64,000 bases of DNA from Octopus vulgaris (Eukaryota), in assembly GCA_951406725.2 (NCBI GenBank), contig OX597816.1, forward strand, positions 18,414,001 to 18,478,000. The letters run 5' to 3'. The stretch's first letter is position 1. Every line of letters begins with the position of its first letter. The position numbers were made by a program, and so were the translations under genes. The notes beneath the pieces are model-generated. The model searched no databases, had not been told where the DNA came from, and worked only from the letters and a program-made list of their open reading frames with translations. Positions 5,636 to 59,676 of this stretch are shown here, one piece after another.

Positions 5636-5871
5636 TATACAAATTATAACTTAGGGCATCTACGAGTTACCACCATGCTGAAAATAACAGCCAGGATCTG
5701 ACTGCAAACCCAGAAATCCGGGATCTGGAATTATCCAGGAATTTTTTACTAGTTTTATTTTGTCTTTTTGTCTTCTCTCCTTGTGCTAAATGAACACTTA
5801 AGGTGGTTATAGAGTCAGATCCTGGCTGGTATTTTCAGCACGGCGTTATCTCGTAGATAACCTAAGTTATA

Positions 5872-5878
<7 letters not shown>
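5636..5878. mobile_element. Inverted-repeat element abutting (TA)n
   Basis: Arms 5636-5703 and 5813-5878 are imperfect reverse complements; (TA)n follows at 5877-5939. Confidence 0.7.
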
Positions 5879-12363: not shown

Positions 12364-13130
12364 ATACAGTGTACATTTCAACACATAATAGGTGACCATC
12401 ATAGGACACCTAGCATGCTAGGTGTCATATGATGGTAATCTCTTATGTGTTTAAATGTACATTGTATTTATATGAATAACTAGCAGCTAAGCCATGTTTC
12501 ACTTGGTCTGTTTGGATGATGTTGCTATGATCGTTTTTGGTTAGGCATAATCTATAACAGCATTTCTCAACCTTATCATTTCGGGTCTCCTGTTTCGATT
12601 TGCGCGTGTTTATGTGAGAGACAAAGTCCTCAAAGCACTCTACTGTCTAAATCCGACAATTCTACCTATTATGTATTTTCAATGAGAAACTGTAACTACA
12701 GATTAAGTTTATTAACCCCACAAAGAAGTGAAAGAAGAAAGACAGCAATAGCGAAAGTTTTGGCTGACTGTCATCCTGTACTCCCCTCGTTGCTAGCGAA
12801 ATGGTATATGCCGGCTGTGTGAGGAACTCGTTTTAATGGCAGAACAAACACGGGAATTCCATTAGAAAAGTTTTAATCCATTTTCTCGCTAACTATGGAG
12901 GCTATGAACTAAAAACACAAGCCGCATTCCAATCTATGCACCCGGCTTCATATGTGTGCCTTTCTTCACGCTAGTCCACGGAGCCGTTCGGCTCTGAACC
13001 TCAAGAAAGAATACAACGATCGCCCATGTCCAACTTATATTATACATATATAATCTGTTGACTTGTTTTCTACATGCTAGGCCACTGGTAGTAAACAATT
13101 CTAAATGTTTTTTCTTATCCTGATATTATA
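12364..13130. mobile_element. Second copy of the 9556 family, interrupted by a Helitron
   Basis: Hairpin 12364-12467 centred on CTAGCATGCTAG; 12460-12479 joined to 13049-13128 aligns to the reverse complement of 9556-9660. Confidence 0.75.
12480..13048 (-). mobile_element. Non-autonomous Helitron
   Basis: Minus-strand 3' end has an imperfect hairpin then CTAG; inserted between A and T without TSD, with the empty site GAATAA|TATAA seen in the paralogue near 9640. Confidence 0.7.
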
Positions 13131-13428: not shown

Positions 13429-13524
<96 letters not shown>

Positions 13525-13712
13525 ATTATATAAAAGGGCTTAGTAAAATAAATTACTTTGCCGCATACTGAACTCATTAGAAATAGCAGCTAAAAAAACT
13601 TTTTTAAAACTATCTCCAATACTTAAAGAAAATCTCTCTCGTATAGTGTTTGCTCAATTCAACTCACGAAAGTATGAGGGTAGAGACATTAAAAAATCAA
13701 ATGCAAAGGTTA

Positions 13713-13769
13713 TTTGAGAACGTACGTTTCAAGATTAGTCAAATCGACACTTCTATCATCAGCTCAGAA
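13713..13769 (-). ncRNA. Hammerhead-like motif, copy 1
   Basis: Reverse complement of 15014-15070. Confidence 0.6.
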
Positions 13770-14269
13770 CTCCCTGGTTTGGATTTGAAAACACTGAAAG
13801 CTGGAGCATACCCTTTCGGCCTGTTATCGCTTCTGAAGATCTGCTCAAAACTAACAGTGTTAGCAAATTCAAATATGCAAACGAAGAATTTCTGCTCTCC
13901 CCCTTCCACCAGCGTGGGTTAAAATCAGCAAACATTATGCTTTTTTTCGGTAAAATCCGAGGCATTTTATAGAGAGAGATGAATTATAATTTCAACAATT
14001 GAGGGTAAAATTAATTAATTAATCAATTTCACCAAGTATTCAGTATACAAAGGGACCATTTAAGGCGAATTCAAATTATTACATTATATAAAAGGGCTTA
14101 GTAAAATAAATTACTTTGCCGCATACTGAACTCATTAGAAATAGCAGCTAAAAAAACTTTTTAAAACTATCTCCAATACTTAAAGAAAATCTCTCTCGTA
14201 TAGTGTTTGCTCAATTCAACTCACGAAAGTATGAGGGTAGAGACATTAAAAAATCAAATGCAAAGGTTA

Positions 14270-14326
14270 TTTGAGAACGTACGTTTCAAGATTAGTCAAA
14301 TCGACACTTCTATCATCAGCTCAGAA
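14270..14326 (-). ncRNA. Hammerhead-like motif, copy 2
   Basis: Reverse complement of 15014-15070. Confidence 0.6.
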
Positions 14327-15013
14327 CTCCCTGGTTTGGATTTGAAAACACTGAAAGCTGGAGCATACCCTTTCGGCCTGTTATCGCTTCTGAAGATCTG
14401 CTCAAAACTAACAGTGTTAGCAAATTCAAATATGCAAACGAAGAATTTCTGCTCTCCCCCTTCCACCAGCGTGGGTTAAAATCAGCAAACATTATGCTTT
14501 TTTTCGGTAAAATCCGAGGCATTTTATAGAGAGAGATGAATTATAATTTCAACAATTGAGGGTAAAATTAATTAATTAATCAATTTCACCAAGTATTCTT
14601 TAAGTATTGGAGATAGTTTTAAAAAGTTTTTTTAGCTGCTATTTCTAATGAGTTCAGTATGCGGCAAAGTAATTTATTTTACTAAGCCCTTTTATATAAT
14701 GTAATAATTTGAATTCGCCTTAAATGGTCCCTTTGTATACTGAATACTTGGTGAAATTGATTAATTAATTAATTTTACCCTCAATTGTTGAAACTATAAT
14801 TCATCTCTCTCTATAAAATGCCTCGGATTTTACCGAAAAAAAGCATAATGTTTGCTGATTTTAACCCACGCTGGTGGAAGGGGGAGAGCAGAAATTCTTC
14901 GTTTGCATATTTGAATTTGCTAACACTGTTAGTTTTGAGCAGATCTTCAGAAGCGATAACAGGCCGAAAGGGTATGCTCCAGCTTTCAGTGTTTTCAAAT
15001 CCAAACCAGGGAG

Positions 15014-15070
15014 TTCTGAGCTGATGATAGAAGTGTCGATTTGACTAATCTTGAAACGTACGTTCTCAAA
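15014..15070 (+). ncRNA. Hammerhead-like motif, copy 3
   Basis: tgag-CTGATGA-taga..gtc/gac..tctt-GAAA-cgtacg-TT-ctca: 4-bp stem I, palindromic stem III, GUU triplet; stem II imperfect. Confidence 0.6.
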
Positions 15071-15356
15071 TAACCTTTGCATTTGATTTTTTAATGTCTC
15101 TACCCTCATACTTTCGTGAGTTGAATTGAGCAAACACTATACGAGAGAGATTTTCTTTAAGTATTGGAGATAGTTTTAAAAAAGTTTTTTTAGCTGCTAT
15201 TTCTAATGAGTTCAGTATGCGGCAAAGTAATTTATTTTACTAAGCCCTTTTATATAATGTAATAATTTGAATTCGCCTTAAATGGTCCCTTTGTATACTG
15301 AATACTTGGTGAAATTGATTAATTAATTAATTTTACCCTCAATTGTTGAAATTATA

Positions 15357-15410
<54 letters not shown>

Positions 15411-15414
<4 letters not shown>

Positions 15415-16064
15415 TTGTTATCGCCATATTAATATGGCATTCTTATAGATATAAGAATAATCGCTCCCGCTTGTCAGCTCCATGAGGCCACCGCCATCAA
15501 GATAGCTATTGATACACGATCTGTATCCATTATAACCTTCGAACAAGGGAGGTCAGCCGCTTCACACTGCCAGTCCGACAGCTACAGACGCGTTTCGGGG
15601 TATTGCCCCTTGTCAATGTAGCGCAGTCAGACCCGCAGGTGTCGCCACTGACGTCTCTGTTCCAAGGTTTCTATTTACCTAGTTTCAGTGGAATACATCC
15701 ACTTGTTTTAAATAATAGAAATATTAAAATTACTAAGTCTCTATAAAAGAGATTACGGCAGCGTTTACTGGAAATTAATTGTTATCGCCATATTAATATG
15801 GCATTCTTATAGATATAAGAATAATCGCTGCCGCTGGTCAGCTCCATGAGGCCACCGCCATCAAGATAGCTAGTTAGCGAAGGTTATAATGGATACAGAT
15901 CGTGTATCAATAGCTATCTTGATGGCAGTGGCCTCATGGAGCTGACCAGCGGCAGCGATTATTCTTATATCTATAAGAATGCCATATTAATATGGCGATA
16001 ACAATTAATTTCCAGTAAACGCTGCCGTAATTTCTTTTATAGAGACTTAGTAATTTCAATATTT
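15411..16064. mobile_element. Tandem plus inverted array of a ~364-bp unit with hammerhead, within (TA)n
   Basis: Unit 15411-15774, partial repeat 15775-15872, and an inverted arm 15878-16064 that crosses the unit junction; (TA)n on both sides. Confidence 0.9.
15581..15622 (-). ncRNA. Minimal type I hammerhead ribozyme motif, U3-A8 variant
   Basis: Sense gctaca-TTGACAA-gggg(caata)cccc-GAAA-cgcg-TC-tgtagc: perfect 6-bp stem I, 4-bp stem II, palindromic stem III, GUC triplet. Confidence 0.85.
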
Positions 16065-16237
16065 ATATATATATATAAATGCATACGAGTATGTATATCA
16101 ACATAAACATTAAAAAAATGTTCATAAACTTCTGCAACGATTATAAATTAGTGAAAACCATACTTGAATGGAGGGACTTAGTTTGGAGAATGGCATCTAG
16201 GTTTATACTAAATCTCTCATTGCATAACTTAGTTCAA

Positions 16238-16478
16238 CTCCAATTATTTGGATATATGAGAATCACAACGCACATACGTATATGTATGTATGTCATTACG
16301 TAGTTTTATTTCAATATTTCTTGCCAAAGCTGGTTTCTAATCTTAAATCCAAGCCTGTATGTATGTATCTCTCTATTTATCTATATACTTAACATTTACG
16401 GAGTATTAATTGAAACAACTGTAAGATATGATGATAAATTTGCTGTTAATAACAAACAACTATTAACTTCCCAATTTC

Positions 16479-16543
<65 letters not shown>

Positions 16544-17611
16544 TGTATAGATATCTATTTTTATATCCATAACTCTATATACATCTGTCTAAATGTCTGT
16601 CTGTCTATCTATCCATATATCTATCTTTATCTATCTAATTTCTTTCCCTTTCTCACAGTCCCTTTCCATTTATATCAATATACCGATCAGTATATGTATA
16701 TATAAAATACGAAAAAGAAAATGGTGATTTGAAACTTAACTGTTTATTATTAACAGCAATTTAATCATCATGCCTTACAGCTGTTTCAATTCATTTTCAG
16801 TAAGTATTAAGTAAATATTAAACTTATATGACCTGAGCATATCTTCAGGGGAAAAGAAACATACCCTTGGATGTGTTACATGTGTTTATGGATTCATTAC
16901 AGAATACTTAATATGGATTCATTATAATGAATCCATAAACACAAAACATGCAAGGGTATATATTTTCCCTCAACTCATAATATAAATTTAATGTATACTG
17001 AACATTTACTGAGTATTAATTGAAACATCTGTACGATATGATGATACATTTGCTGTTAATAATAAACAATTATTAAATTCCAAATCCCCATATATATATA
17101 TATATATGAATGTATAGATATCTATTAATATATCCATAAATCAATATATGTCTGTCTGACTGACTGTCTGTCTGTCTGTCTATCTGTCTATATATATATA
17201 TATATATATGTATGTATATGTATAGACATGCACACAAACATACATATATATAGAGAGAAAACTATATATGTTAGTGTATGTTTATGTGTTTGTATGTGCT
17301 ATATGTATAACTGTTATGTATTTATGAACATTTTCCTCCAAAATATTAATACTATTGCAACGAGTGCACCTCCAATTATTTGGATATATGAGAATCACAA
17401 CGCACATACGTATATGTATGTATGTCATTACGTAGTTTTATTTCAATATTTCTTGCCAATAGCTGGTTTCTAATCTTAAATCCAAGCCTGTATGTATGTA
17501 TCTCTCTATTTATCTATATACTTAACCTTTACGGAGTATTAATTGAAACAACTGTAAGATATGATGATAAATTTGCTGTTAATAACAAACAACTATTAAC
17601 TTCCCAATTTC

Positions 17612-17676
<65 letters not shown>

Positions 17677-18501
17677 TGTATAGATATCTATTTTTATATC
17701 CATAACTCTATATACATCTGTCTAAATGTCTGTCTGTCTATCTATCCATATATCTATCTTTATCTATCTAATTTCTTTCCCTTTCTCACAGTCCCTTTCC
17801 ATTTATATCAATATACCGATCAGTATATGTATATATAAAATACGAAAAAGAAAATGGTGATTTGAAACTTAACTGTTTATTATTAACAGCAATTTAATCA
17901 TCATGCCTTACAGCTGTTTCAATTCATTTTCAGTAAGTATTAAGTAAATATTAAACTTATATGACCTGAGCGTATCTTCATGGGAAAAGAAACATACCCT
18001 TGGATGTGTTACATGTGTTTATGGATTCATTACAGAATACTTAATATGGATTCATTATAATGAATCCATAAACACAAAACATGCAAGGGTATATATTTTC
18101 CCTCAACTCATAATATAAATTTAATGTATACTGAACATTTACTGAGTATTAATTGAAACATCTGTACGATATGATGATACATTTGCTGTTAATAATAAAC
18201 AATTATTAAATTCCAAATCCCCATATATATATATATATATGAATGTATAGATATCTATTAATATATCCATAAATCAATATATGTCTGTCTGACTGACTGT
18301 CTGTCTGTCTGTCTATCTGTCTATATATATATATATATATGTATGTATATGTATAGACATGCACACAAACATACATATATATAGAGAGAAAACTATATAT
18401 GTTAGTGTATGTTTATGTGTTTGTATGTGCTATATGTATAACTGTTATGTATTTATGAACATTTTCCTCCAAAATATTAATACTATTGCAACGAGTGCAC
18501 C
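16238..18501. repeat. Near-perfect tandem duplication of ~1.13 kb
   Basis: 16238-17369 is repeated at 17370-18501 with only a few substitutions and (TA)n length differences. Confidence 0.92.
16723..17088. mobile_element. Decayed palindromic element ending at (TA)n (duplicated at ~17865-18222)
   Basis: Left arm GGTGATTTGAAAC...TATGGATTCATTA mirrors the right arm TAATGAATCCATAAAC...CCAAATCCCC; an extra arm fragment lies at ~16385-16480. Confidence 0.65.
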
Positions 18502-21040: not shown

Positions 21041-21112
21041 TTTCCGAATATATTATTTGCTATTTCCTACATTTTATCTTCTGTAATAATAATAATAATA
21101 ATAATATATATA

Positions 21113-21512
21113 TTTCGAATTCATATTGTTATTTAGCCAATAAAAACACACGCACTATATTTGGTGTTATTTTGCTTCAGTGATATTTATTTTTTACATT
21201 AATCTTAATAATTTGAAGTTCTTTCGTCACACTCGTGACCGATCAGTGGTCCTTTGTTTTCTCTCACTTACTTGCTCTCCTACTAACCGTCAGCCATTTT
21301 GTATCAAAATGGCTGACGGTTAGTAAGGAGAGACACAAGTAAGTGAGAAGAAAACAAAGGACCACTGATGCGGTCACAGGAGTGTGACGAAAGAACTTTG
21401 GCCGAAATAAGATTAAGATTAATGTAAAAATAAATATCACTGAAGCAAAATAACACCAAATATATAGTGCGTGTGTTTTATTGGCTAAACTGGCAATATG
21501 ACCATTCCGAAA
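21113..21512. mobile_element. ~400-bp palindromic element with hammerhead-like motif in each arm
   Basis: Arms mirror about 21303. Plus strand 21359-21403 reads ggacca-CTGATGCG-gtcac/gtgac-GAAA-gaac-TT-tggcc, with a mirrored degenerate copy near 21215-21255. Confidence 0.75.
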
Positions 21513-21850
21513 TATAACAATATCTGTTTCAACACACGACTTCACATAAAATATCTTGCACAACAAATATTTAAACGTAATAATAATAATAATTTTCGAT
21601 ATATTCGTCTCGCACTGAGAACAGTCATTTGTAATTAATTTAATTTAATTCAATTAATTTTAATTATTCTACCATGTTATTTACATGTTTTAATATCGCT
21701 GTTTGAAAAGATAGCATACATATATTAAACTTCTTTTCAAATTTAACATCGTGTCTCCATCTTTTAACGATTTGTTGAGTTTCTATGGGGTACCTTTCCA
21801 TAAATTCTTATTACACAATATATTTACACACACACACACACACACATATG

Positions 21851-23654: not shown

Positions 23655-24252
23655 GAGGCGAGCTGGAAGAAACGTTAGCACGCCGACCGGAATGCGTAGC
23701 TGTATTTCGTTTGTCGTTACGTTCTCAGTTCAAATTCCGCCGAGGTCGAATTTGCCTTTCATCCTTTCGGGGTCGATAAATTAAGTACCATTTACGCACT
23801 GGGGTCGATGTAATCGACTGAATCCCTTTGTCTGTCTTTGTTTGTGTTCTCTGTGTTTATCCCCTTGTGAGTAGTAAAGAAATAGGTATTTCGTCTGCCG
23901 TTACGTTCTGAGTTCAAATTCCGCCGAGGTCGACTTTGTCTTTCATCCTTTCGGGGTCGATAAATTAAGTACATATTACGCACTGGGGGTCGATGTAATC
24001 GACTTAATCCGTTTGTCTGTCCTTGTTTGTGCTCTCTGTGTTTAACCCCTTGTGAGTAGTAAAGAAATAGGTATTTCGTTTGCCGTTACATTCTGAGTTC
24101 AAATTCCACCGAGGTCGACTTTGCCTTTAATCCTTTCGGGGTCTATAAATTAAGTACCATTTACGCACTGGGGTCGATGTACTCGACTTAATCCGTTTGT
24201 CTGTCCTTGTTTGTCCCCTCTGTGTTTAGCCCCTTATGGGTAGTATAGAAAT
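23655..24252 (+). mobile_element. SINE family A trimer
   Basis: One head plus three ~178-bp bodies joined at GAAATAG|GTATTTC; imperfect TSD TATTATCTTT...AAA. Confidence 0.92.
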
Positions 24253-25726
24253 ATATATTATCTTTATTTTCAAACCACGTGTATTTGCCAACAAATTTGT
24301 ATTTTGCTGTGTATCACATTTCGTCATATTATTTCTTCCTCAACATTCTCGGTAATTAAATTGGACATTGGTTGGAAGCTGCACATTCATAAAAGAAAGA
24401 AAACTATTCGCGACGTGCAGTCTTTTGTTTGTTAAGGCCTTTTGTTTATTATAAGTTTAATAGGCATTATTTGGGATAGAAATTATGATTCCGCCTACTG
24501 TTTAGCTACACTTCACATCTCTGTTTGAAATATAACTATGTTTAAGCAGTCAATGATTTTATGGGAGTATTTTTCAGAATGTTATGTTCAATATAAATAC
24601 ATTGCATTGAGAGTGATAATTCAGAGGACAATATTAAATGATCAGAAATTCAAACGAAACTACGTGGAAATAGCAACATATGAATTCAATAGAACATCTG
24701 CATATCCTCCTACACAAATTCATAGAATAAAATTACTTAAAATACCATATATTGTCAACTTACTAAAAATAACGTAAACCATTTATAATGAGTTTATGTA
24801 CTGTTAGCACATACACAGTAATCTAAAGTGAAATAGAAATGATATTTCCACAAATGTACATTCGAAATGACTATAAATTCGAGAATCGTTTAACGTAAAA
24901 TATTTGATTAATACGAGTATGATGTGTCTTAGGCTTTGTTAATCGCTAAATACGCATATATTTCTAGATTTATATTTTTAACACCATTTTCATCAGCGTT
25001 GGCATTTCTCTCTGAAAATCTCATTTAAGTTTAATAGAACAGTATACAATGCACTTTACAAAGAGGAGAATGAATAAATATCAAACTCTCGTCAATAAAT
25101 ACATCACTTGAAATTATGTGATACATAGGATATTATTTATCGAAATCTATTTTGTATGGTAGCATGGTAGCGAAGTAACGAAATATGCTAGATGTACGAG
25201 CAAAACTCAGAATATTTCAGTCACTAAACAGTATTAGCACACAGTAAATACTCAATCGCAACGTTTTGTATTTATTAAGGGTTATCTTTTCCCCAGTGCT
25301 TAGAACATAGTCTTTGCAATGAATCGGCTTATATTTACAAAATTGTAAGATCCGTAGATATATGACTTCAAATTACCAACGATGTATACTTAGAGTTGTT
25401 CGAAGAGTCTCTTATACAGCAGTCCACATATAGTAATTAATATAAGTGTAGGTATTAGGAACTGTAGCTGAGAATAAAGATATTCGAAGAAACCATAAAT
25501 CTTAACTTATAACTAATTGAATTATGCTTATATGAACATCAGAATGAAAAATAATGAAACACAAATCAAAACAGATGTAAAAGAAGACATAACCGAGGGC
25601 AATGAAGAACCGGACGTGTAGGATTTATAGGCAATAAAACACAATGGTTCGCCACCAGTCGGAGTGTAAATCAGTACAATTCTCCCAGGAGGATACATAT
25701 GGCATTATTCGTTACCCGTACTGATA

Positions 25727-27038: not shown

Positions 27039-27770
27039 TTGTCTGTATATCTCTCTATCTTTCTATATCTCTTTCTCTCTATATATATATATATTACTTT
27101 ATATGTTTATGTATGCATCTGTGTATGCATGTATGTGTGAGAGCGTGAGCATTTTTGCATGGATGTATTCTATGTTCTTACGTCTCTCTATACCATATTG
27201 CATCGCCTCTCTAATAACGTTACTCGATATTAGGCCGAACTCTAAACTAAACGATTCCAAAAGCGAACAAACTCATCCACGAATCATATATATGCCACAT
27301 AAAAAACATATTAATAACAATACATATTACTACCGGGATCGGTAAGTCAGACTGTGTGTCTCCCAAAATTGTGTTATCAAGTGCCTATATCAGAAATCAA
27401 TAGAACTATAAATATTGCTTTAATCCATTGCAACTGTGAATGATGACAAAATAACACAAGCGAGAGACTTATAATCCAATACATTCTTAGGCAAGTATCT
27501 ACTGTATGTGGACAGCTACAACTTATACCATTGTATTAAGTATTGGTTCATCGGTAGTTCAAGTCCAGCGCTTTGCATGTTTAAATGCCGTCGACACGAC
27601 TGCTAATAATTCGAATAATAACTTTGTGCATATTAATATGATTATACGGTTTACTGACGCCATGTAATATTGCACATCGAATTTTTTTTTTTTTATGGGA
27701 ACATGCTTCGAAATGCCCCATGATTAGTGAACGTGAAGATAAATATCAGTAATGTCGCGTGTTCATATAT

Positions 27771-28369
27771 ATTTCTTTACTACCCACAAGGGGCTAAACA
27801 TAGAGGGGACAAACAAGGACAGACAAACGGATTAAGTCGATTACATCGACCCCAGTGCGTAACTGGTACTGAATTTATCGACCCCGAAAGGATGAAAGAC
27901 AAAGTCGACCCCGGCAGAATTTGAACTCAGAACGTAACAGCAGACGAAATGCCTATTTCTTTACTACCCACAAGGGGCGAAACACAGAGGGGACAAACAA
28001 GGACAGACAAACGAATTAAGTCGATTATATCAACCCCAGTGCTTAACTGGTACTTAATTAATCGACCCCGAAAGGATGAAAGACAAAGTCGACCTCGGCG
28101 GAATTTGAACTCAGAACGTAACGGCAGACGAAATACCTATTTCTTTACTACCCACAAGGGGCGAAACACAGAGGAGACAAACAAGGACAGACAAACGGAT
28201 TAAGTCGATTACATCGACCCCAGTGCTTAACTGGTACTTAATTTATCGACCCCGAAAGGATGAAAGGCAAAGTCGACCTCGGCGTAATTTGAACCCAGAA
28301 CGAAACGGCAGAGGAAATATGGCTACGCATTTCGCCCGGCGTGCTAACGATTCTGCCAGCTCACCGCCA
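27771..28369 (-). mobile_element. SINE family A trimer with one TSD
   Basis: Three bodies and one head; TSD TGTCGCGT(G/A)TTCATATAT at about 27753 and 28373. Confidence 0.93.
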
Positions 28370-33659: not shown

Positions 33660-35287
33660 AAGGGGTTATGTTTCCGGTCTATATCAGCTTGATTGCTACG
33701 GGCCACATATTCGCCATGCAGAGTTTTTTGTTCCCACTTAGCAAAGGGTTCTCAACCGCATTTTGCTTTCCTATTGATTTCACCTTCTTTGCAACAACAG
33801 TTGCTGGCCTCCCATCATGCTGTTCAACTTAGGTACTATGCATAAACTCGCTTGAAAACTTTTTTGATCTCTTTAATAAAAAATGAAGCTTCTTCTTCTT
33901 ACATCTTTCATGATTTTCAACGAGCTTTAGCATCCAGTCGTTAGATTCTTCAATAATATCTGCCAATCCATTTGTGGTAGTGTTGTAAGAGATTCCAGAT
34001 TGGATCAATCGTCGACCTGCTTGAGCTCTGGGTAGGTAAAGACGATCTGCATCTGCCTTTGAGTGGTGCATCTTATTGCAAGTCAGCAGCTTACAGATTT
34101 TCCTGTCAACCTTCCTTATTTCGCTCAAATTCCAGTTCAACACTTTGAAACTGTAACTAACAACCGGAACTGCTAAGGAATGTTTAGCTAACACCTGGTT
34201 ACGAGCATTTACTCGGATTCTAGGACAGTTCGAACTCTCCTGTAACACTCCTTCCTGATCTTCTCTTTCATACTTGCATGCTGAATGCCAGAACCCTCAT
34301 TAATTCCGAGGTATTTGTAAGTTTGTTCCTGCTCAAATTCTTTTATGACTGTGTCAAAATCCTACACCACTGAATGTGTGGTCTTTAATTTTCTTTTCTG
34401 GAAAGTGGCCTTGTCACATTTATCAAGACCAAATTCCCTCCCAGTATCATCACCGAATGCTTTCACAGTATGTAGTAGTCCTTCAAACTAATTATCTTCT
34501 TTGCCATAGAGTTTTAAGTGATCCATATAAAATGGATTACTCATTTCCTTGTTGAGTTCACTTGCAAGGGGTATTAGAGCTATGCAGAAAATTATAGGTG
34601 AAAGTTAGTTACCTTGGAAAATGCTATTGTTGATATTAATATTTTTTGTAGACAACTCTCTATTAGAGTGCTATAATTGGAGATTCGTATTCCACATTGA
34701 CATGTGCTTGCGGAAACTTGAAATCATACGAGAAATTTTGAAGATATCCAGCGATTTCAAGATCTATGAATGCGGTATGCTGTGGAAGCATTTTTGTAAT
34801 CAATCCATGCAGAACTGAAATTTATGCGTTTGTTGTGACAATTCTCAAGGATCATGCAATTGATAAGAGATGATCTTTGCCTCGTCGGTACCCCATTTTG
34901 TTCAGTGGTGAAAATAAGGTTCCCTTCCATAAAATGGAAGTTAAAATTCTATACGTGGTAGATAGACAAGTTTCGGGACGATAGTTTTGGGGAAATTTTG
35001 TTTTATTATTTTTCTGGAGTAGTTAACCAATCCGGTGTCTTCGTAGAATCTCTCATAATTTCATTGAACTTAGTATTCATGTGCGCAGGGAACCGAGACG
35101 TGCCAGAAATGTGGCACCTTACCATTACCGGGGGATTTCTACTTATAATCCTCCATGAGTGTCATCTTAGGTCTTCTATTTTCATGTCTTCTCATGCTTG
35201 TTCTGTTAAGTTTTGGTAGGATCCATCTGTTCGTCTAATCCATTGTGAGTCTTTTAGTCACTCCAGATATTTTCCAGGAGTTTCAAA
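33660..35287 (-). pseudogene. Decayed R4/Dong-like retrotransposon RT region
   Basis: IFQGN.LSPIIFCIALIPL, YMDHLKLY, TYKYLGINEGSGIQHASMKE, MHHSKADADRLYLPRAQAGR; many stops and frameshifts; (TAT)n at 35288-35311. Confidence 0.9.
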
Positions 35288-35724
35288 TTATTATTATTGT
35301 TATTATTATTTACTTTTAATCTGCATGTTTTTTATAATCTCTTCCCGAGACACACAAAAAGTCCTAGGGCGAGTGACGGATAAGAGATGTTAACGTACGA
35401 CTGAAAGCTTGGTAAGGGGAAGTAGCAAGGGTAGTATTGAAATATATTCATGCAATATAACACAAACTTTTAAATTGATAGTGTTTTTCTGAGGATATAG
35501 GCAGTAATGGTCAGCACAATACTTTTCTCTAAAACATGGTACTCCAGGGATATTATATAGATGTTTCACCCATACATGTCTTATCATACCGTGGGCACTC
35601 ACAATATCAGGAATATTTTTCGCTTTAAAATACATCTTTTGTATTGCAATTTCAAGGACCTTATATATACTTAATTTGCCAAATTCTTTTACACATATTT
35701 TTTTTCACTGGTAACTCTTATATC

Positions 35725-35725
<1 letters not shown>

Positions 35726-35798
<73 letters not shown>
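35726..35798. repeat. (TAT)n/(TAA)n tract at the 3' junction of the Dong-like element
   Basis: Directly visible. Confidence 0.97.
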
Positions 35799-35799
<1 letters not shown>

Positions 35800-38715
35800 G
35801 TTTTTTCCTTCTTTCTTCAAATTTTCTTCCATTTCTTGCCGAGTGTTTTCCATGCACCTAGGGCAGAGAAGCTCATTGTATGCATTCCCAGATTACGCGC
35901 GCAAATTCACTGATAAAATATGTATTTAAAAATTAATAGATAAATAAATTCATGGATGGATGTTATTTTCACAGCGATAGTGCTCTTCTTAGTACATGGG
36001 CCGCTCCAGTTAATACGATTTTTTGCACTTCTTGTTGGGATGGTAAGCCTGGAATCATTTTCAAATAGGTTTCAGTACCTTTTTTTATCATTCCTAGAGA
36101 TCCTACAATCACTGGTACTGTAGTCGCCTTGAGATGCCACATTTTTTCAATTTCTATTAGCAGGTCTTTATATTTACTAATCTTGTCAAATTCTTTCGCC
36201 GCTATATTGTGATCACGGAATACTCATGTCAATTAATAAACACATCATTTTTGTCTGATCTTTTATAATGATATCCGGTTTATTAGCTTTTATAGTCTTG
36301 TCGGTCTGCACGGGGAGGTCCCATAGAACGACACATTTTCTCCCTCAGTCACAGCTTCAGGATGATGTTTATACCATTGGTCAGCGGTTTTGATTTTATA
36401 ATGCCGACATATTGTCCAATGTAAATACTGGCCGACTCTGTCATGTCTTGCTTTATATTCTGCAGGTGCTAAGACTCTACCCTCTGAGATTAGGTAGTCT
36501 GTTTTTTCAATCTCATCGTTACAGATCGGCATTTTGGGTCAGCTCCATTTTTCATCACATTGGCTTGGTAGTTCCGGGTTAATAAACTTTGGTCTTGAGC
36601 AGCTAATATGAAACCTTCACTCTCTGCTTTTAGCCCTGAGCTTCGTAACCATTGGTGCATGTGTTTCTGGTCGACATCAGCTTGTTTGCTACGGGCCACA
36701 TACTTGCCATGGAAAGGTTTCTGTTCCCATCTGCTAGCTAAATTTTCATGTGCTTTTGTCTTTGCAATTAATTTTATTTTCTTTGCAGCTGCAGTTGGCG
36801 CATTTCCTTCAGCCTGCTCAATCTGGTGGGTATCTAAGAGATCAGCGGCGACGTTTTTTCTCTCTTTGAGAATAAAGTGAAGTTTTTTAGGTCTTTCATG
36901 TTTTTCAACAAGTTTTAGCATCCAATCGTTGGTTGCTTCAAGGTATTTGGCCAGTCCAGTTGTGGTGGTTTTGTATGTAAGTTCAAGCTGGATCAAACCT
37001 CGACCTCCCTGAGCTCTGGGAAGGTAAAGGCGATCCACGTCTGCCTTTGGATGGTGCATCTTATTACAAGTCAGTAGCTTGCGGATTTTTCTGTTAATTT
37101 TCATTATTTCACTGGTATTCCAGTTAATCACATTGAAGCTATAAACAACAACTGGTTCTGCTAAAGAATTTATGCCTAAAACCTTATTATATGCATTCAG
37201 CTCAGACTTCAGGCTTGCTCGAACTCTTCTATAACATTCTTTCCTCACCTTCTTTCATGCTTGCATGCTGGATACCAGAGCCTTCATTTATTCCTAGGTA
37301 TTTATAGGTTTGTTCCTGCTCAAATTCCTTTATTACTATTTCGACATCTAATTCGATTGAACTAGACTTTACCAATTTCCCTTTCTTAAAAGTCGCTTTG
37401 GCACACTTCTCCAGGCCAAACTCTATCCCGATATCGTCACTGAATCCTTTCACAGTATGTAATAATCCTTCAAGCTCTTCATCATCTTTGCCATATAGCT
37501 TTAAGTCATCCATATAAAATAGTTGGCTTATTTTCCTGTTGTTAATTTTGTAGCCATATCCTGTTCTATTCAGTTCACTTGAGAGTGGTATTAGTGCTCT
37601 GCAGAAAGTTAGTGGTGAAAGTGAGTCTCCTTGGAAAATTTAACAGTTTATGCTAATGTTTTTTGAGTGCAATACTCCATTAGAATTATATAATTAGAGC
37701 TTCGTGTTCCATAGAGACATATTATACTTTTAAAAATCTGAAATCACAGGAGAATTTTTGAAAATGTCCAGTGATTTCAGAATCCACGGATATGGTATTC
37801 TGTCAAAGGCTTTTTTATAATCAATCCATGAAGAGCTAAGATTTCTGCGCTTGTTATGGCAGTTGTCAAGGATCATGCGATTAATTAGGAGCTGATTTTG
37901 CATCCGTATGAGCCTCGTCTGCATCCTTTTTGTTCAGTAGGAAAGAGGTTATTCTCTTCCATAAACGTATATGTTTTCTCTACTAGAATAGATGTCAAAA
38001 TCTTATAGGTAGTAGATCAACATGTTATAGGCCGATAGTTTTTTGGGTCTTTCGTTTTGTTATTTTTGGGGAGGAGGTAAGTAATACAATTTGCCATCCA
38101 ATGTGGTGTTTTTCCCGTGTCTTTCATAATACTATTAAATAGTATTACTAACATTTTGTGTGCGGACGAGAGTGATGAGAGCCAGAAATTTGGTACTCTA
38201 TCAATACCAGGGGATTTCCATTTGTGAGCCTTCGTTAGTGCTCTCCTTAGATCGGCGATTGAGATGTCTTCCCATACCTGTTCTTGTAGATTTTTGTAGT
38301 CACCTTGGGTGCGTTTGATCTACTCTGCATTTTCATTGTATGGTTTCTCATCACTCCAGATCCCCTTCCAAAAGTTTTCAACTTCTTCCATTAGGGGTGG
38401 ATTTTCAATGGTTATTTTTTCTTTCCCTATTTCCCTGTAAAATGATTTGGCATTGGATTTGAACGTTTTATTTTGTTTGTAGAATTTGATTCTTTTCTCA
38501 AATCTGCGTATTCTCTGATATTTTGCTTGAACTTTTTGTTTAAGTGTTTCCTTCGCTGACATTAGTTCTTCTCTTGTTGAGTGACCAAATATTCTCACAA
38601 TCTTCCTGCCTTTTCTTGATCTTACATCATTTCAAGAGATTAGCTCAGTTAATATCGATAACTCCCTTCACAATAATTGAATTTCAGTTTCAATTCTACT
38701 CCTCCAGGTTGATTT
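35799..38715 (-). mobile_element. 5'-truncated R4/Dong-clade non-LTR retrotransposon (RT, CCHC, PD-(D/E)xK RLE), frameshifted
   Basis: WIDYKKAFD, IFQGDSLSP, YMDDLKLY, LYLPRAQGGRGL, degenerate CCHC, RHDRVGQYLHW, NKPDIII..IDMSIP, KYKDLLIEIEKMW..PVIVGSLG..VLRRALSL* (stop 35969-35971); (TAA)n on both sides. Confidence 0.95.
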
Positions 38716-50495: not shown

Positions 50496-51119
50496 CATAA
50501 GAACAGTTTTAAAAGATCTTGGATATGAACAAAGAAACCAATAAATTGAAATTAAGTTAAGACCAGAATTTGGACTGAATTTGAAAATTCTACAAGGAAA
50601 ATAAGTTTTGTTTTACAATAATATATTCTAACTAGGACGATAATATATTCTAACTATAGAGCTGGCAGAATCGTCAGCATGCCGGATGAAATTCATACGT
50701 TTATCAATTCATCGGTTTATTTTACTTCCAGCCCAGTAATCTTACTGAAAGCTACTGTCAAGTTGTACCTGTTCGTATTCTATCGAATTAAGACCCAGGT
50801 TTGGCGCAACGCCTTTCAGAAATTGGATTTTAATGCTTTAACACCTTGCATGGATAATATGTTTCTGTATATTATTAAAAAGGCGTTATCTAATCGATTT
50901 TTATTCTGGAATGGATAGGAGAAGGCAATTCCCGTGTATTTGAAGGTATTCTGTGGCATTTAAAGGATTTTCAAAATGATTATCCGAATGCCATTTCCAT
51001 CTTGTTTAACCTTTCCTTGCAAGCTTTCCCGCTCACTTCTACAAATTTAGCTGGGTCGCAAATATATTCGCCTTACAATGACAAGGTAAATATAATCGTT
51101 TTCGTTAGAATATATTATT

Positions 51120-51718
51120 TATTTCTTTATTGTCCCACAAGAGGCTAAACATAGAGGAGGCAAACAAGGACAGGTAAAGGGATTAAGACGATTATATAGA
51201 CACCAGTGCGTGACTTGTACTTATTTAATCGACCCCGAAACGATGAAAAGCAAAGTCGACTTCAGCGGAATTTGAACTCAGAACGTAACGGCAAACGAAA
51301 TACCTATTTCTTTACTACCCAAAAGGGGTTAAACACAGAGGGGACAAAGAAGGAGAGGCAAACGGATTAAGTCGATTATATCGACATCAGTACGTAACTG
51401 GTACTTATTTAATCGACCCCGAAAGGATGAAAGGCAAAGTCGTCCTCGGCGGAATTTGAACTCACAACGTAACTTCGGACGAAATACCTATTTCTTTATT
51501 ACCCACAAGGGGCTAAACACAGAGGGGACAAACAAGGACAGACATAGGTATTAAATCGATTACATCGACCCCAGTACGTAACTGGAACTTATTTAATCGA
51601 CCCCGAAAGGATGAAAGGCAAAGTCGTCCTCGGCGGAATTTGAACTCAGAACGTAACTTCGGACGAAATACCGCTAAGCATTTCGCCCGGCGTCCTAACG
51701 ATTTTGCCAGATCGCCGC
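51120..51718 (-). mobile_element. SINE family A trimer with one TSD
   Basis: Three bodies and one head; TSD GTTAGAATATATTATT at about 51104 and 51723. Confidence 0.93.
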
Positions 51719-54249: not shown

Positions 54250-54251
<2 letters not shown>

Positions 54252-54537
54252 AATTAAGGACTGAACACGAAAAAGTGGACAGTCAACATGCTAGATATAG
54301 ACGTCAAATCGCCATTCTCCACATGTTCTCAGATCAAACCCATGCAATAATGTTCGTTTTGATCTGAGAACATAATCTTTTGTGGAGAATGGCGATTTGA
54401 CGTCTATATCTAGCATGTTGACTGTCCACTTTTTCGTGTTCAGTCCTTAATTGGTATATATAAATATTTAATCTTCGGATTTTTTTAATATGTTAGACCA
54501 CTGGTTTTAATTGATAAATATTGATTTCTACCCTTAA

Positions 54538-59142: not shown

Positions 59143-59209
<67 letters not shown>

Positions 59210-59384
59210 GAATATTAGGGAATAAATCCAAATTTACAGGAAAAAATCAGATTTAGGATTAAATCCAATTTTATAGTAAAATATTATATAATATTAATTC
59301 GAGACAAAACCACTATTTTGCAAATCAAACAAGGAAATACTTAATCAATACATAAAAAAATTTTAATATAAAGTAAATAAACCG

Positions 59385-59428
59385 CCACTACAATTGTTTC
59401 ATGTATTCAAATGACATTCGTCAGGTGG
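59385..59428 (-). ncRNA. Minimal type I hammerhead ribozyme motif
   Basis: ccac-CTGACGA-atgtc..tacat-GAAA-caattg-TA-gtgg. Confidence 0.82.
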
Positions 59429-59511
59429 ATTTCCGATCTTCTAATCAGTTTTAATTTATGAAGTCATAAATTAAAACTTCATAAATTAAAACTGATTAGA
59501 AGATCGGAAAT

Positions 59512-59554
59512 CCACCTGACGAATGTCATTTGAAGACATGAAACAATTGTAGTG
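59512..59554 (+). ncRNA. Minimal type I hammerhead ribozyme motif
   Basis: cac-CTGACGA-atgtc(atttgaa)gacat-GAAA-caattg-TA-gtg; palindromic stem III and GUA triplet. Confidence 0.85.
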
Positions 59555-59637
59555 TTTATTTACTTTATATTAAAATTTTTTATGTATTGATTAAGTCTTT
59601 CCTTGTTTGATTTGCAAAATAGTGGTTTTGTCTCGAA

Positions 59638-59676
<39 letters not shown>

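What the first reader, a model, noticed from the sequence alone, without database searches (positions are those of the whole stretch)
13525..15355. 557-bp circularly permuted unit, tandem then inverted, one hammerhead per unit
Seen: two direct copies, then an inverted arm that starts mid-unit and reads through the unit junction twice. The two outer ends fall at different TATA-like positions of the unit (ATTATATAAAAGGG and TATAATTTCAACAATTGAGGG). Copies are nearly identical, so the structure is recent. Inference: read-through of the junction fits reverse transcription of a circular or multimeric RNA, and one ribozyme per unit would cut a transcript into 557-nt monomers as in retrozymes.
Basis: partly seen in the sequence, partly recalled or inferred. 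Interest (0 to 1): 0.8.

Follow-up and report, generated by a model that had tools for sequence, protein, structure and literature searches.

The report
Retrozyme pasted from both DNA ends
This is a young copy of a non-coding 557-base repeat with a predicted self-cutting (hammerhead) RNA motif, sitting in a TA microsatellite as two back-to-back arms, a build that recurs at other copies and was likely written from RNA by a Penelope-type retrotransposon enzyme starting on both sides of one DNA break; this kind of element (retrozyme) is already known in animals.

Summary
The structure is real as described. A 557-nt non-coding unit with a type I hammerhead forms a 1.9-unit arm and a 1.4-unit arm joined 5'-to-5' at three shared bases, with both 3' ends running into (TA)n. 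Both arms pass the predicted cut site without a scar. Public contigs show 7 other 5'-to-5' junctions of this family at scattered points, with no 3'-to-3' junction listed. They also show (TA)n junctions at the same place as the window's left end. So the 3' ends are preferred start sites, not free permutation points. Neither arm nests inside the other, so both broken DNA ends were likely primed. This matches published Penelope-like biochemistry (both strands cut and extended, two start sites). A one-base marker shared by both outer passes argues against two independent reads of one monomer circle; circle versus uncut multimer stays open. Cleavage, circles and the partner enzyme are untested, and this window's own junction was not bridged in other samples. 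Verdict: new member of the animal non-LTR retrozymes with a Penelope-type footprint. The scan has noted the same build on other DNA of this genome, with ~360 and ~490-nt units.

The parts
13431..13520 (.). left (TA)n target tract
13519..13525 (-). 3' end of left arm = inferred start site 1 of reverse transcription (unit position 193-199, counting 1 = first base after the predicted cut)
   Evidence: same site runs into (TA)n in runs X1, X4, X8
13525..14598 (-). left arm, ribozyme sense on minus strand: unit position 235, cut site, full monomer, cut site, position 193 (1.93 units)
13719..14275 (-). the one complete cut-to-cut monomer, 557 nt, 34% GC, longest sense frame 74 aa, highly self-paired
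13715..13766 (-). predicted type I hammerhead, copy 1 (core 13762, cut after 13719)
14272..14323 (-). predicted type I hammerhead, copy 2 (core 14319, cut after 14276)
14596..14598 (.). 5'-to-5' junction of the arms, 3-base microhomology TTC (unit positions 235 and 89)
   Evidence: not bridged in the listed pieces
14596..15356 (+). right arm, ribozyme sense on plus strand: unit position 89, cut site, position 291 (1.36 units)
15017..15068 (+). predicted type I hammerhead, copy 3: 4-bp stem I (extendable), core CUGAUGA, U-U at base of stem II, GAAA, 1-bp stem III with palindromic GUAC loop, GUU cut after 15064
15352..15356 (+). 3' end of right arm = inferred start site 2 (unit position 291; TATA shared with target)
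   Evidence: one diverged contig of run X2 ends near it in (TA)n
15353..15410 (.). right (TA)n target tract, shared with a neighbouring 364-nt element
13600..13605 (-). marker A-run at unit position ~114: A6 here and at 15178-15183 (outer passes), A5 at 14158-14162 and 14621-14625 (inner passes)

Best explanation
This is a non-coding 557-nt repeat with a predicted type I hammerhead, inserted in (TA)n as two 5'-to-5' arms, likely reverse-transcribed by a borrowed Penelope-like enzyme that primed on both ends of one break. Steps: (1) inferred: tandem copies are transcribed; the weak stem III would let ribozymes cut mainly as pairs, giving monomers that could close into circles, with some multimers left uncut. 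(2) inferred from published Penelope biochemistry: the GIY-YIG/RT protein cuts both strands of AT-rich DNA and extends both 3' ends. (3) partly shown: synthesis starts at two preferred RNA sites, about 193-199 and about 291 nt after the cut, one per DNA end; site 1 recurs at other loci, site 2 has one other example. (4) shown in sequence: each arm passes the ribozyme junction intact, so the template was likely a circle or an uncut multimer (roughly even odds). (5) shown at 7 other loci: the 5' ends fall at variable points and are joined head-to-head with 0-5 shared bases or a few added bases. Whether the centre joins two long cDNAs or one cDNA folds back and meets a short one from the other end is open.
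For: Anatomy. No register nests one arm in the other: left spans 235-1307, right 89-848 or 646-1405 in unrolled unit coordinates, so a plain fold-back of one cDNA cannot make it. One search lists 8 joints: 7 are same-strand skips from the antisense to the sense part, i.e. 5'-to-5' inversion junctions at other loci (X1: 2, X8: 5, none in X4 or X2; depth 24-76; ends at 239-257 and 132-177); the eighth is ordinary unit continuity; no 3'-to-3' joint is listed. In 4 of the 7 the short side runs to the start of the reference, past the unit's AT palindrome, so they are not palindrome mis-mappings. All 6 (TA)n loose ends among the 21 rows shown (57 not shown) lie on the ribozyme-sense 3' side. Neighbours 15410-16068 and 59208-59644 share the build. 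Literature: the anole Penelope protein cuts and extends both strands, prefers AT-rich DNA and starts at two internal RNA sites, with uncut RNA as main substrate (PMC11167929); inverted 5'-truncated copies and (TA)n targets (PMC8557442); retrozymes as Penelope derivatives (10.64898/2026.07.22.740005).
Against: No autonomous partner was identified: no genome is held, and the only RT hits among 140 window frames are two RVT_1 fragments at 37232-37933, with no GIY-YIG hit. The window's own junction was not bridged in any listed piece of 4 runs. Rfam finds no hammerhead. The catalytic fold is not the predicted minimum: -6.7 against -10.4 kcal/mol locally and 4.3 kcal/mol above the minimum in the circle; local z is +1.3. 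Only 1 of 9 Xenopus retrozyme dimers cut in vitro. Family variants do not significantly spare the predicted fold (12 breaks of 36 against 14.8 +/- 2.5, P=0.19). The gap between the start sites (92-98 nt) is longer than the 30-40-nt Penelope tail. Junction sides are only 20-24 nt, and one search listed no opposite-strand joint although two X1 junctions fall in its stretch, so the joint tables are incomplete and 7 against 0 is not a clean count.
Confidence: 0.7

Rival explanations
1. Same element and RNA route, but the enzyme is a non-Penelope retrotransposon (a REL-endonuclease HERO/R4-type or L1/Tx1 element) using twin priming.
For: Decayed non-LTR RT fragments lie in the window (my reading of them as R4/HERO-like is recalled, not tested). 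Earlier scan notes report hammerheads in HERO elements of this genome (unchecked). PMC7229834 leaves LINEs open as partners.
Against: No poly(A) or simple tail of its own. The arms overlap over 663 nt, unlike classic L1 twin priming, where the arms come from separate parts of one RNA (recalled; one search shows only the citation). Partial tandem plus inverted 5'-truncated copy is the published Penelope build.
Confidence: 0.12
2. A tandem satellite or earlier insertion was inverted at the DNA level (replication template switch or break repair), without a second priming on RNA.
For: The arms match in register at both A-run passes, as a DNA copy of the left arm would; the centre has a 3-base microhomology.
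Against: The right arm runs 98 nt past the left arm's end in that register, so a second switch is needed. Inversions recur at 7 other loci, all of one polarity, and the 3' ends recur at one site.
Confidence: 0.1
3. The inversion at this locus is an assembly or long-read chimera, although the family is real.
For: This exact junction was not bridged in listed pieces from 4 runs; the arms are nearly identical.
Against: Chimeric fold-backs mirror the sequence at the turn; here there is a 408-nt spacer and staggered ends. Other inversion junctions of the family exist in independent public contigs. A young insertion may be absent from other individuals.
Confidence: 0.05
4. The unit is only the terminal repeat (pLTR) of an autonomous Penelope element, and the tandem arises from repeated template jumps on its RNA rather than from a self-standing retrozyme RNA.
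For: 24 of 57 Xenopus retrozyme families match known elements, nearly all Penelope termini; Penelope hammerheads occur in opposite-strand pairs 100-700 bp apart.
Against: The unit closes on itself with no coding sequence, and the end-to-start joint is present in all 4 runs laid; three passes of the cut site show no scar.
Confidence: 0.03

Closest known systems
Animal non-LTR retrozymes (coral, mussel, axolotl; PMC7229834, parts 2-4 of 6 read; bioRxiv 10.64898/2026.07.22.740005, parts 1-3 of 5 read)
   Same: Tandem non-coding AT-rich units, one type I hammerhead each, self-paired monomer. The U-U at the base of stem II is as in axolotl HHR_Amex2; the 1-bp stem III with palindromic tetraloop is as in HHR_Amex1.
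   Different: 557 nt is above the 150-450 range of PMC7229834 but within the 51-972 range of the preprint. The two weak features sit in one ribozyme. Head-to-head arms in (TA)n with preferred 3' sites are not described in the parts read. Circles and cleavage are untested here.
EN+ Penelope-like elements (Poseidon PAc, PMC11167929, parts 1-2 of 4 read; Naiad and others, PMC8557442, passages; Adineta Penelopes, PMC3846280, passages; PLE hammerheads, PMC4209133, passages)
   Same: Partial tandem plus inverted 5'-truncated copy, head-to-head; (TA)n or AT-rich target; arms end at two different 3' sites (tail); hammerhead with palindromic stem III.
   Different: No RT or GIY-YIG ORF; the tail is 92-98 nt rather than 30-40; no sequence link to an autonomous element could be tested.
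L1 twin priming (Ostertag and Kazazian 2001; recalled, only the citation seen)
   Same: Both target strands prime on RNA and the products join with microhomology, giving an inversion.
   Different: No poly(A), no readable target duplication, and the arms overlap by 663 nt and run through a unit junction.

Membership tests
Animal non-LTR retrozyme | Type I hammerhead in each of at least two consecutive tandem units | tested here: met
   Cores at 14319(-) and 13762(-), 557 nt apart; pattern in 6 of 3000 shuffles; Rfam does not detect it
Animal non-LTR retrozyme | Non-coding | tested here: met
   Longest frames 74 aa sense and 91 aa antisense; no Pfam hit for the 9 frames in the arms
Animal non-LTR retrozyme | GC below 50% and highly self-paired monomer | tested here: met
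   34% GC; z -6.9 linear; z -5.5 circular sense against -3.9 antisense, 30 shuffles each
Animal non-LTR retrozyme | Unit of a few hundred bases | tested here: met
   557 nt: outside 150-450, inside 51-972
Animal non-LTR retrozyme | No LTR, primer-binding site or polypurine tract | not tested
   No LTR-like build is seen; PBS and PPT were not searched
Animal non-LTR retrozyme | Target duplication longer than 4 bp when present | tested here: inconclusive
   Both flanks are (TA)n, so a duplication cannot be read
Animal non-LTR retrozyme | Self-cleavage of the RNA | not testable with these tools
   Folding only: catalytic fold 4.3 kcal/mol above the circle minimum; stem III homodimer -11.6 kcal/mol
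Animal non-LTR retrozyme | Expressed as linear and circular monomers | not testable with these tools
   Only contigs were available, and a circle junction equals the tandem junction
Penelope-like element (autonomous) | RT plus GIY-YIG ORF | tested here: not met
Penelope-like insertion footprint (non-autonomous) | Partial tandem with adjacent inverted 5'-truncated copy, head-to-head | tested here: met
   7 further junctions; definition
Penelope-like insertion footprint (non-autonomous) | (TA)n or AT-rich target | tested here: met
   both flanks; 6 (TA)n loose ends in 4 runs
Penelope-like insertion footprint (non-autonomous) | Two internal start sites giving a 30-40-nt tail | tested here: inconclusive
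   Two sites, 92-98 nt apart; site 1 recurs in 3 runs, site 2 lay outside the stretch and has one diverged example
Penelope-like insertion footprint (non-autonomous) | Sequence similarity to the pLTR of an autonomous Penelope element | not testable with these tools
   no genome held; no repeat library on hand
L1 twin-priming inversion (recalled) | Poly(A) 3' end and non-overlapping arms from one linear RNA | tested here: not met
   no poly(A); 663-nt overlap

The most novel reading that the evidence does not exclude
Animal retrozyme insertions are written in one step by a dimeric Penelope enzyme that primes both ends of a (TA)n break at two fixed sites on the same RNA molecule and runs through the ribozyme junction; single-base markers between passes, such as the A5/A6 run here, let one read from genomes alone whether that RNA was a monomer circle or an uncut multimer, and so explain the tandem/inverted build of Penelope elements generally.
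Probability: 0.35. Interest if true: 0.68.

Novelty: new member of a known kind. Interest (0 to 1): 0.42.

Why it matters
How Penelope elements make their tandem/inverted insertions is named as unresolved in PMC8557442. The enzyme and template that move animal retrozymes are proposed but not shown. A young, high-copy, non-coding family with readable ends is a direct test bed. Its 3' ends predict where a Penelope protein should prime, its 5' junctions show how the centre is closed, and variants between passes can separate circle from multimer. My searches found no paper describing this footprint for retrozymes or a cephalopod retrozyme; most subscription papers are not in the library. The class itself is known and the scan has noted sister families, so this copy adds a replicate and one informative marker, not a new system.

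Tried and rejected
No whole genome is held, so there was no census and no partner search. Rfam: no hammerhead hit; the microRNA hits only reflect the neighbour's long hairpin. A 23-nt exact pattern found 0 matches in metagenome contigs. Earlier scan notes by sequence: 0 look-alikes. Expression: no RNA holder listed. Runs X2 and X3 are RNA only by guess and no silent stretch was laid, so their contigs across the cut site, and their higher share of the window's minority alleles, are not used as evidence. Contig starts at 15048 in X2 and X3 lie 30 nt before a common variant at 15078 and are read as graph breaks, not RNA ends. Summed contig depth (1e4-1e6 in DNA-type runs against 24-76 for single junctions) suggests a large family but is no copy number. 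A rough estimate of 120-670 inverted insertions assumes uniform 5' ends. Covariation test: not significant (36 of the 40 rows shown were used, 4 rows seen essentially only in X2 dropped, 28 rows not shown). Within the hammerhead, DNA-run variants shown fall only at the free core position 7 and in loop II, but only about 1 would be expected at the conserved positions, so this proves little. The neighbour's 2-against-1 variant pattern cannot separate circle from multimer. The idea that A5 is a rare allele was dropped: both alleles occur elsewhere. 'TATA box at each end' was rejected as the reason for the ends: at site 1 the junctions lie a few bases 3' of the TATATA word and run into (TA)n. Supplements of the papers were not read; those of the preprint are closed and may list related families.

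Full report
Setting. The window is animal DNA rich in (TA)n tracts and short repeats. Earlier scan notes call the genome octopus-like (unchecked); I did not determine the species. No whole genome is held.

Observation. There are two direct copies (13525-14082 and 14083-14598, the second 41 nt short) and an inverted arm 14596-15356, all above 99% alike. A pattern scan of the whole window gave 5 type I hammerhead candidates, 3 of them in this insertion. The same pattern occurs in 6 of 3000 shuffled units. Rfam does not see it.

Anatomy in ribozyme sense. I number the unit from the first base after the predicted cut. The left arm (minus strand) starts at 235, passes the cut site, holds one whole 557-nt monomer, passes the cut site again and ends at 193-199 in (TA)n. 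The right arm (plus strand) starts at 89, passes the cut site once and ends at 291 in (TA)n. The 5' ends meet at a shared TTC. The unit is non-coding, 34% GC and strongly self-paired (z -6.9; circular sense -5.5, antisense -3.9).

The ribozyme. It has an intact core, a U-U at the base of stem II and one base pair in stem III under a palindromic loop. Both traits are described separately in axolotl retrozymes, which cut poorly alone and well as dimers (PMC7229834). PMC4209133 notes that such dimers allow cutting in multimers and avoid it in monomer circles. The stem III stretch self-pairs at -11.6 kcal/mol, and the catalytic fold costs 4.3 kcal/mol in the circle. Activity is plausible, not shown; 8 of 9 Xenopus dimers did not cut.

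Other copies. Twenty of 24 listed runs hold part of the unit, under 4 organism labels. Laid on one unit, 4 runs show a diverse family in which the window's copy carries minority alleles, and all 4 show the end-to-start joint. For the second lay I used 14556-14725, where an inversion junction appears as a same-strand skip. Seven such junctions are listed, 2 in X1 and 5 in X8, at depth 24-76, with 5' ends at 239-257 and 132-177; this is the only range the stretch could show. Two share 1 and 5 bases and three have 1-7 added bases. No 3'-to-3' joint is listed. Five (TA)n loose ends in X1, X4 and X8 lie at about 195-199, and one diverged X2 contig ends near 288-291; all six are on the 3' side. The limits: sides are 20-24 nt, the tables are cut, and the window's own junction is not bridged in any listed piece.

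What this means. The (TA)n junctions sit at the ribozyme-sense 3' ends, as target-primed reverse transcription of that strand predicts (inference). The 3' ends are preferred sites and the 5' ends are variable, so 'circular permutation' overstates it. No register places one arm inside the other, so a single cDNA folding back cannot make the whole insertion; both target ends were likely primed. The purified anole Penelope protein does this: it cuts and extends both strands at AT-rich DNA, starts at two internal RNA sites and uses uncut RNA (PMC11167929). Partial tandems with an inverted 5'-truncated copy and (TA)n targets are the published Penelope build, usually head-to-head.

Circle or multimer. 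Scar-free read-through needs one or the other. The A-run at position ~114 is A6 in both outer passes and A5 in both inner passes, and both alleles exist elsewhere. Two independent reads of one monomer circle would need the same slip twice. One event suffices if the template was a multimer with unlike units, or if one cDNA from a circle slipped, folded back at TTC and met a short cDNA from the other end; later conversion between the arms is also possible. It is one homopolymer site, so it narrows the models without deciding, and it sits uneasily with earlier notes that infer two enzymes on one circle.

Neighbours. 15410-16068 is an unrelated 364-nt unit with a U3-A8 hammerhead and the same staggered arms. 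59208-59644 has a hammerhead core on each arm and an 83-nt tail. Of 42 intervals between (TA)n tracts, 13 hold an inverted repeat of 40 nt or more (no control was run, and some are inverted short-repeat pairs).

Comparison and verdict. By every feature testable here it is an animal non-LTR retrozyme. It is not an autonomous Penelope element but carries that group's footprint, in line with the 2026 preprint that derives retrozymes from Penelope termini. My seven literature searches found no paper describing this footprint for retrozymes. The scan has noted it for ~360 and ~490-nt families of this genome but not for this unit. New member of a known kind; interest 0.42.

Noticed in passing
window 15410-16068: Second insertion sharing the right (TA)n tract: unrelated 364-nt unit, hammerhead on the minus strand with U3-A8 core (15616, cut after 15587), arms head-to-head and staggered (unit 266 to 364+364, and 233 to about 364+59), a few extra bases at the centre, fold z -8.
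   Followed up: partly
window 59208-59644: (TA)n-flanked head-to-head pair with a hammerhead core on each arm (59424 minus, 59516 plus), an 83-nt tail on the left arm and a short duplication at the centre.
   Followed up: partly
window 54250-54454, 21109-21516, 12367-12464, 5642-5874, 16722-17090 and its copy 17855-18223: Further inverted repeats next to (TA)n tracts, several with tiny loops that suggest fold-back; my scan found no canonical hammerhead in them.
   Followed up: no
window 16231-18501: Young ~1.13-kb tandem duplication (99.5%) that contains older decayed inverted repeats and (TA)n tracts.
   Followed up: no
window 33669-38299: Two decayed non-LTR retrotransposon copies, about 70% alike, with RVT_1 hits at 37232-37639 and 37733-37933.
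   Followed up: no
unit positions 254-257 (window 14576-14579): 5 of the 7 other inversion junctions end one arm at the apex of the unit's AT hairpin; this is also the edge of the visible range.
   Followed up: no
unit positions 12 and 395: Two 7-of-8 matches to the octamer motif on the sense strand; an snRNA-type promoter in newt satellite 2 is recalled, not checked.
   Followed up: no
run X2: 20 T>C places against 7-8 in the DNA-type runs, which could be A-to-I editing of the antisense strand if the run is RNA; one X4 contig begins matching at 15062, at the predicted cut, with unlike sequence before it.
   Followed up: no
window 23657-24264, 27765-28367, 51109-51718 and others: A ~184-nt repeat family in triple tandem and dispersed copies, 85-94% alike.
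   Followed up: no
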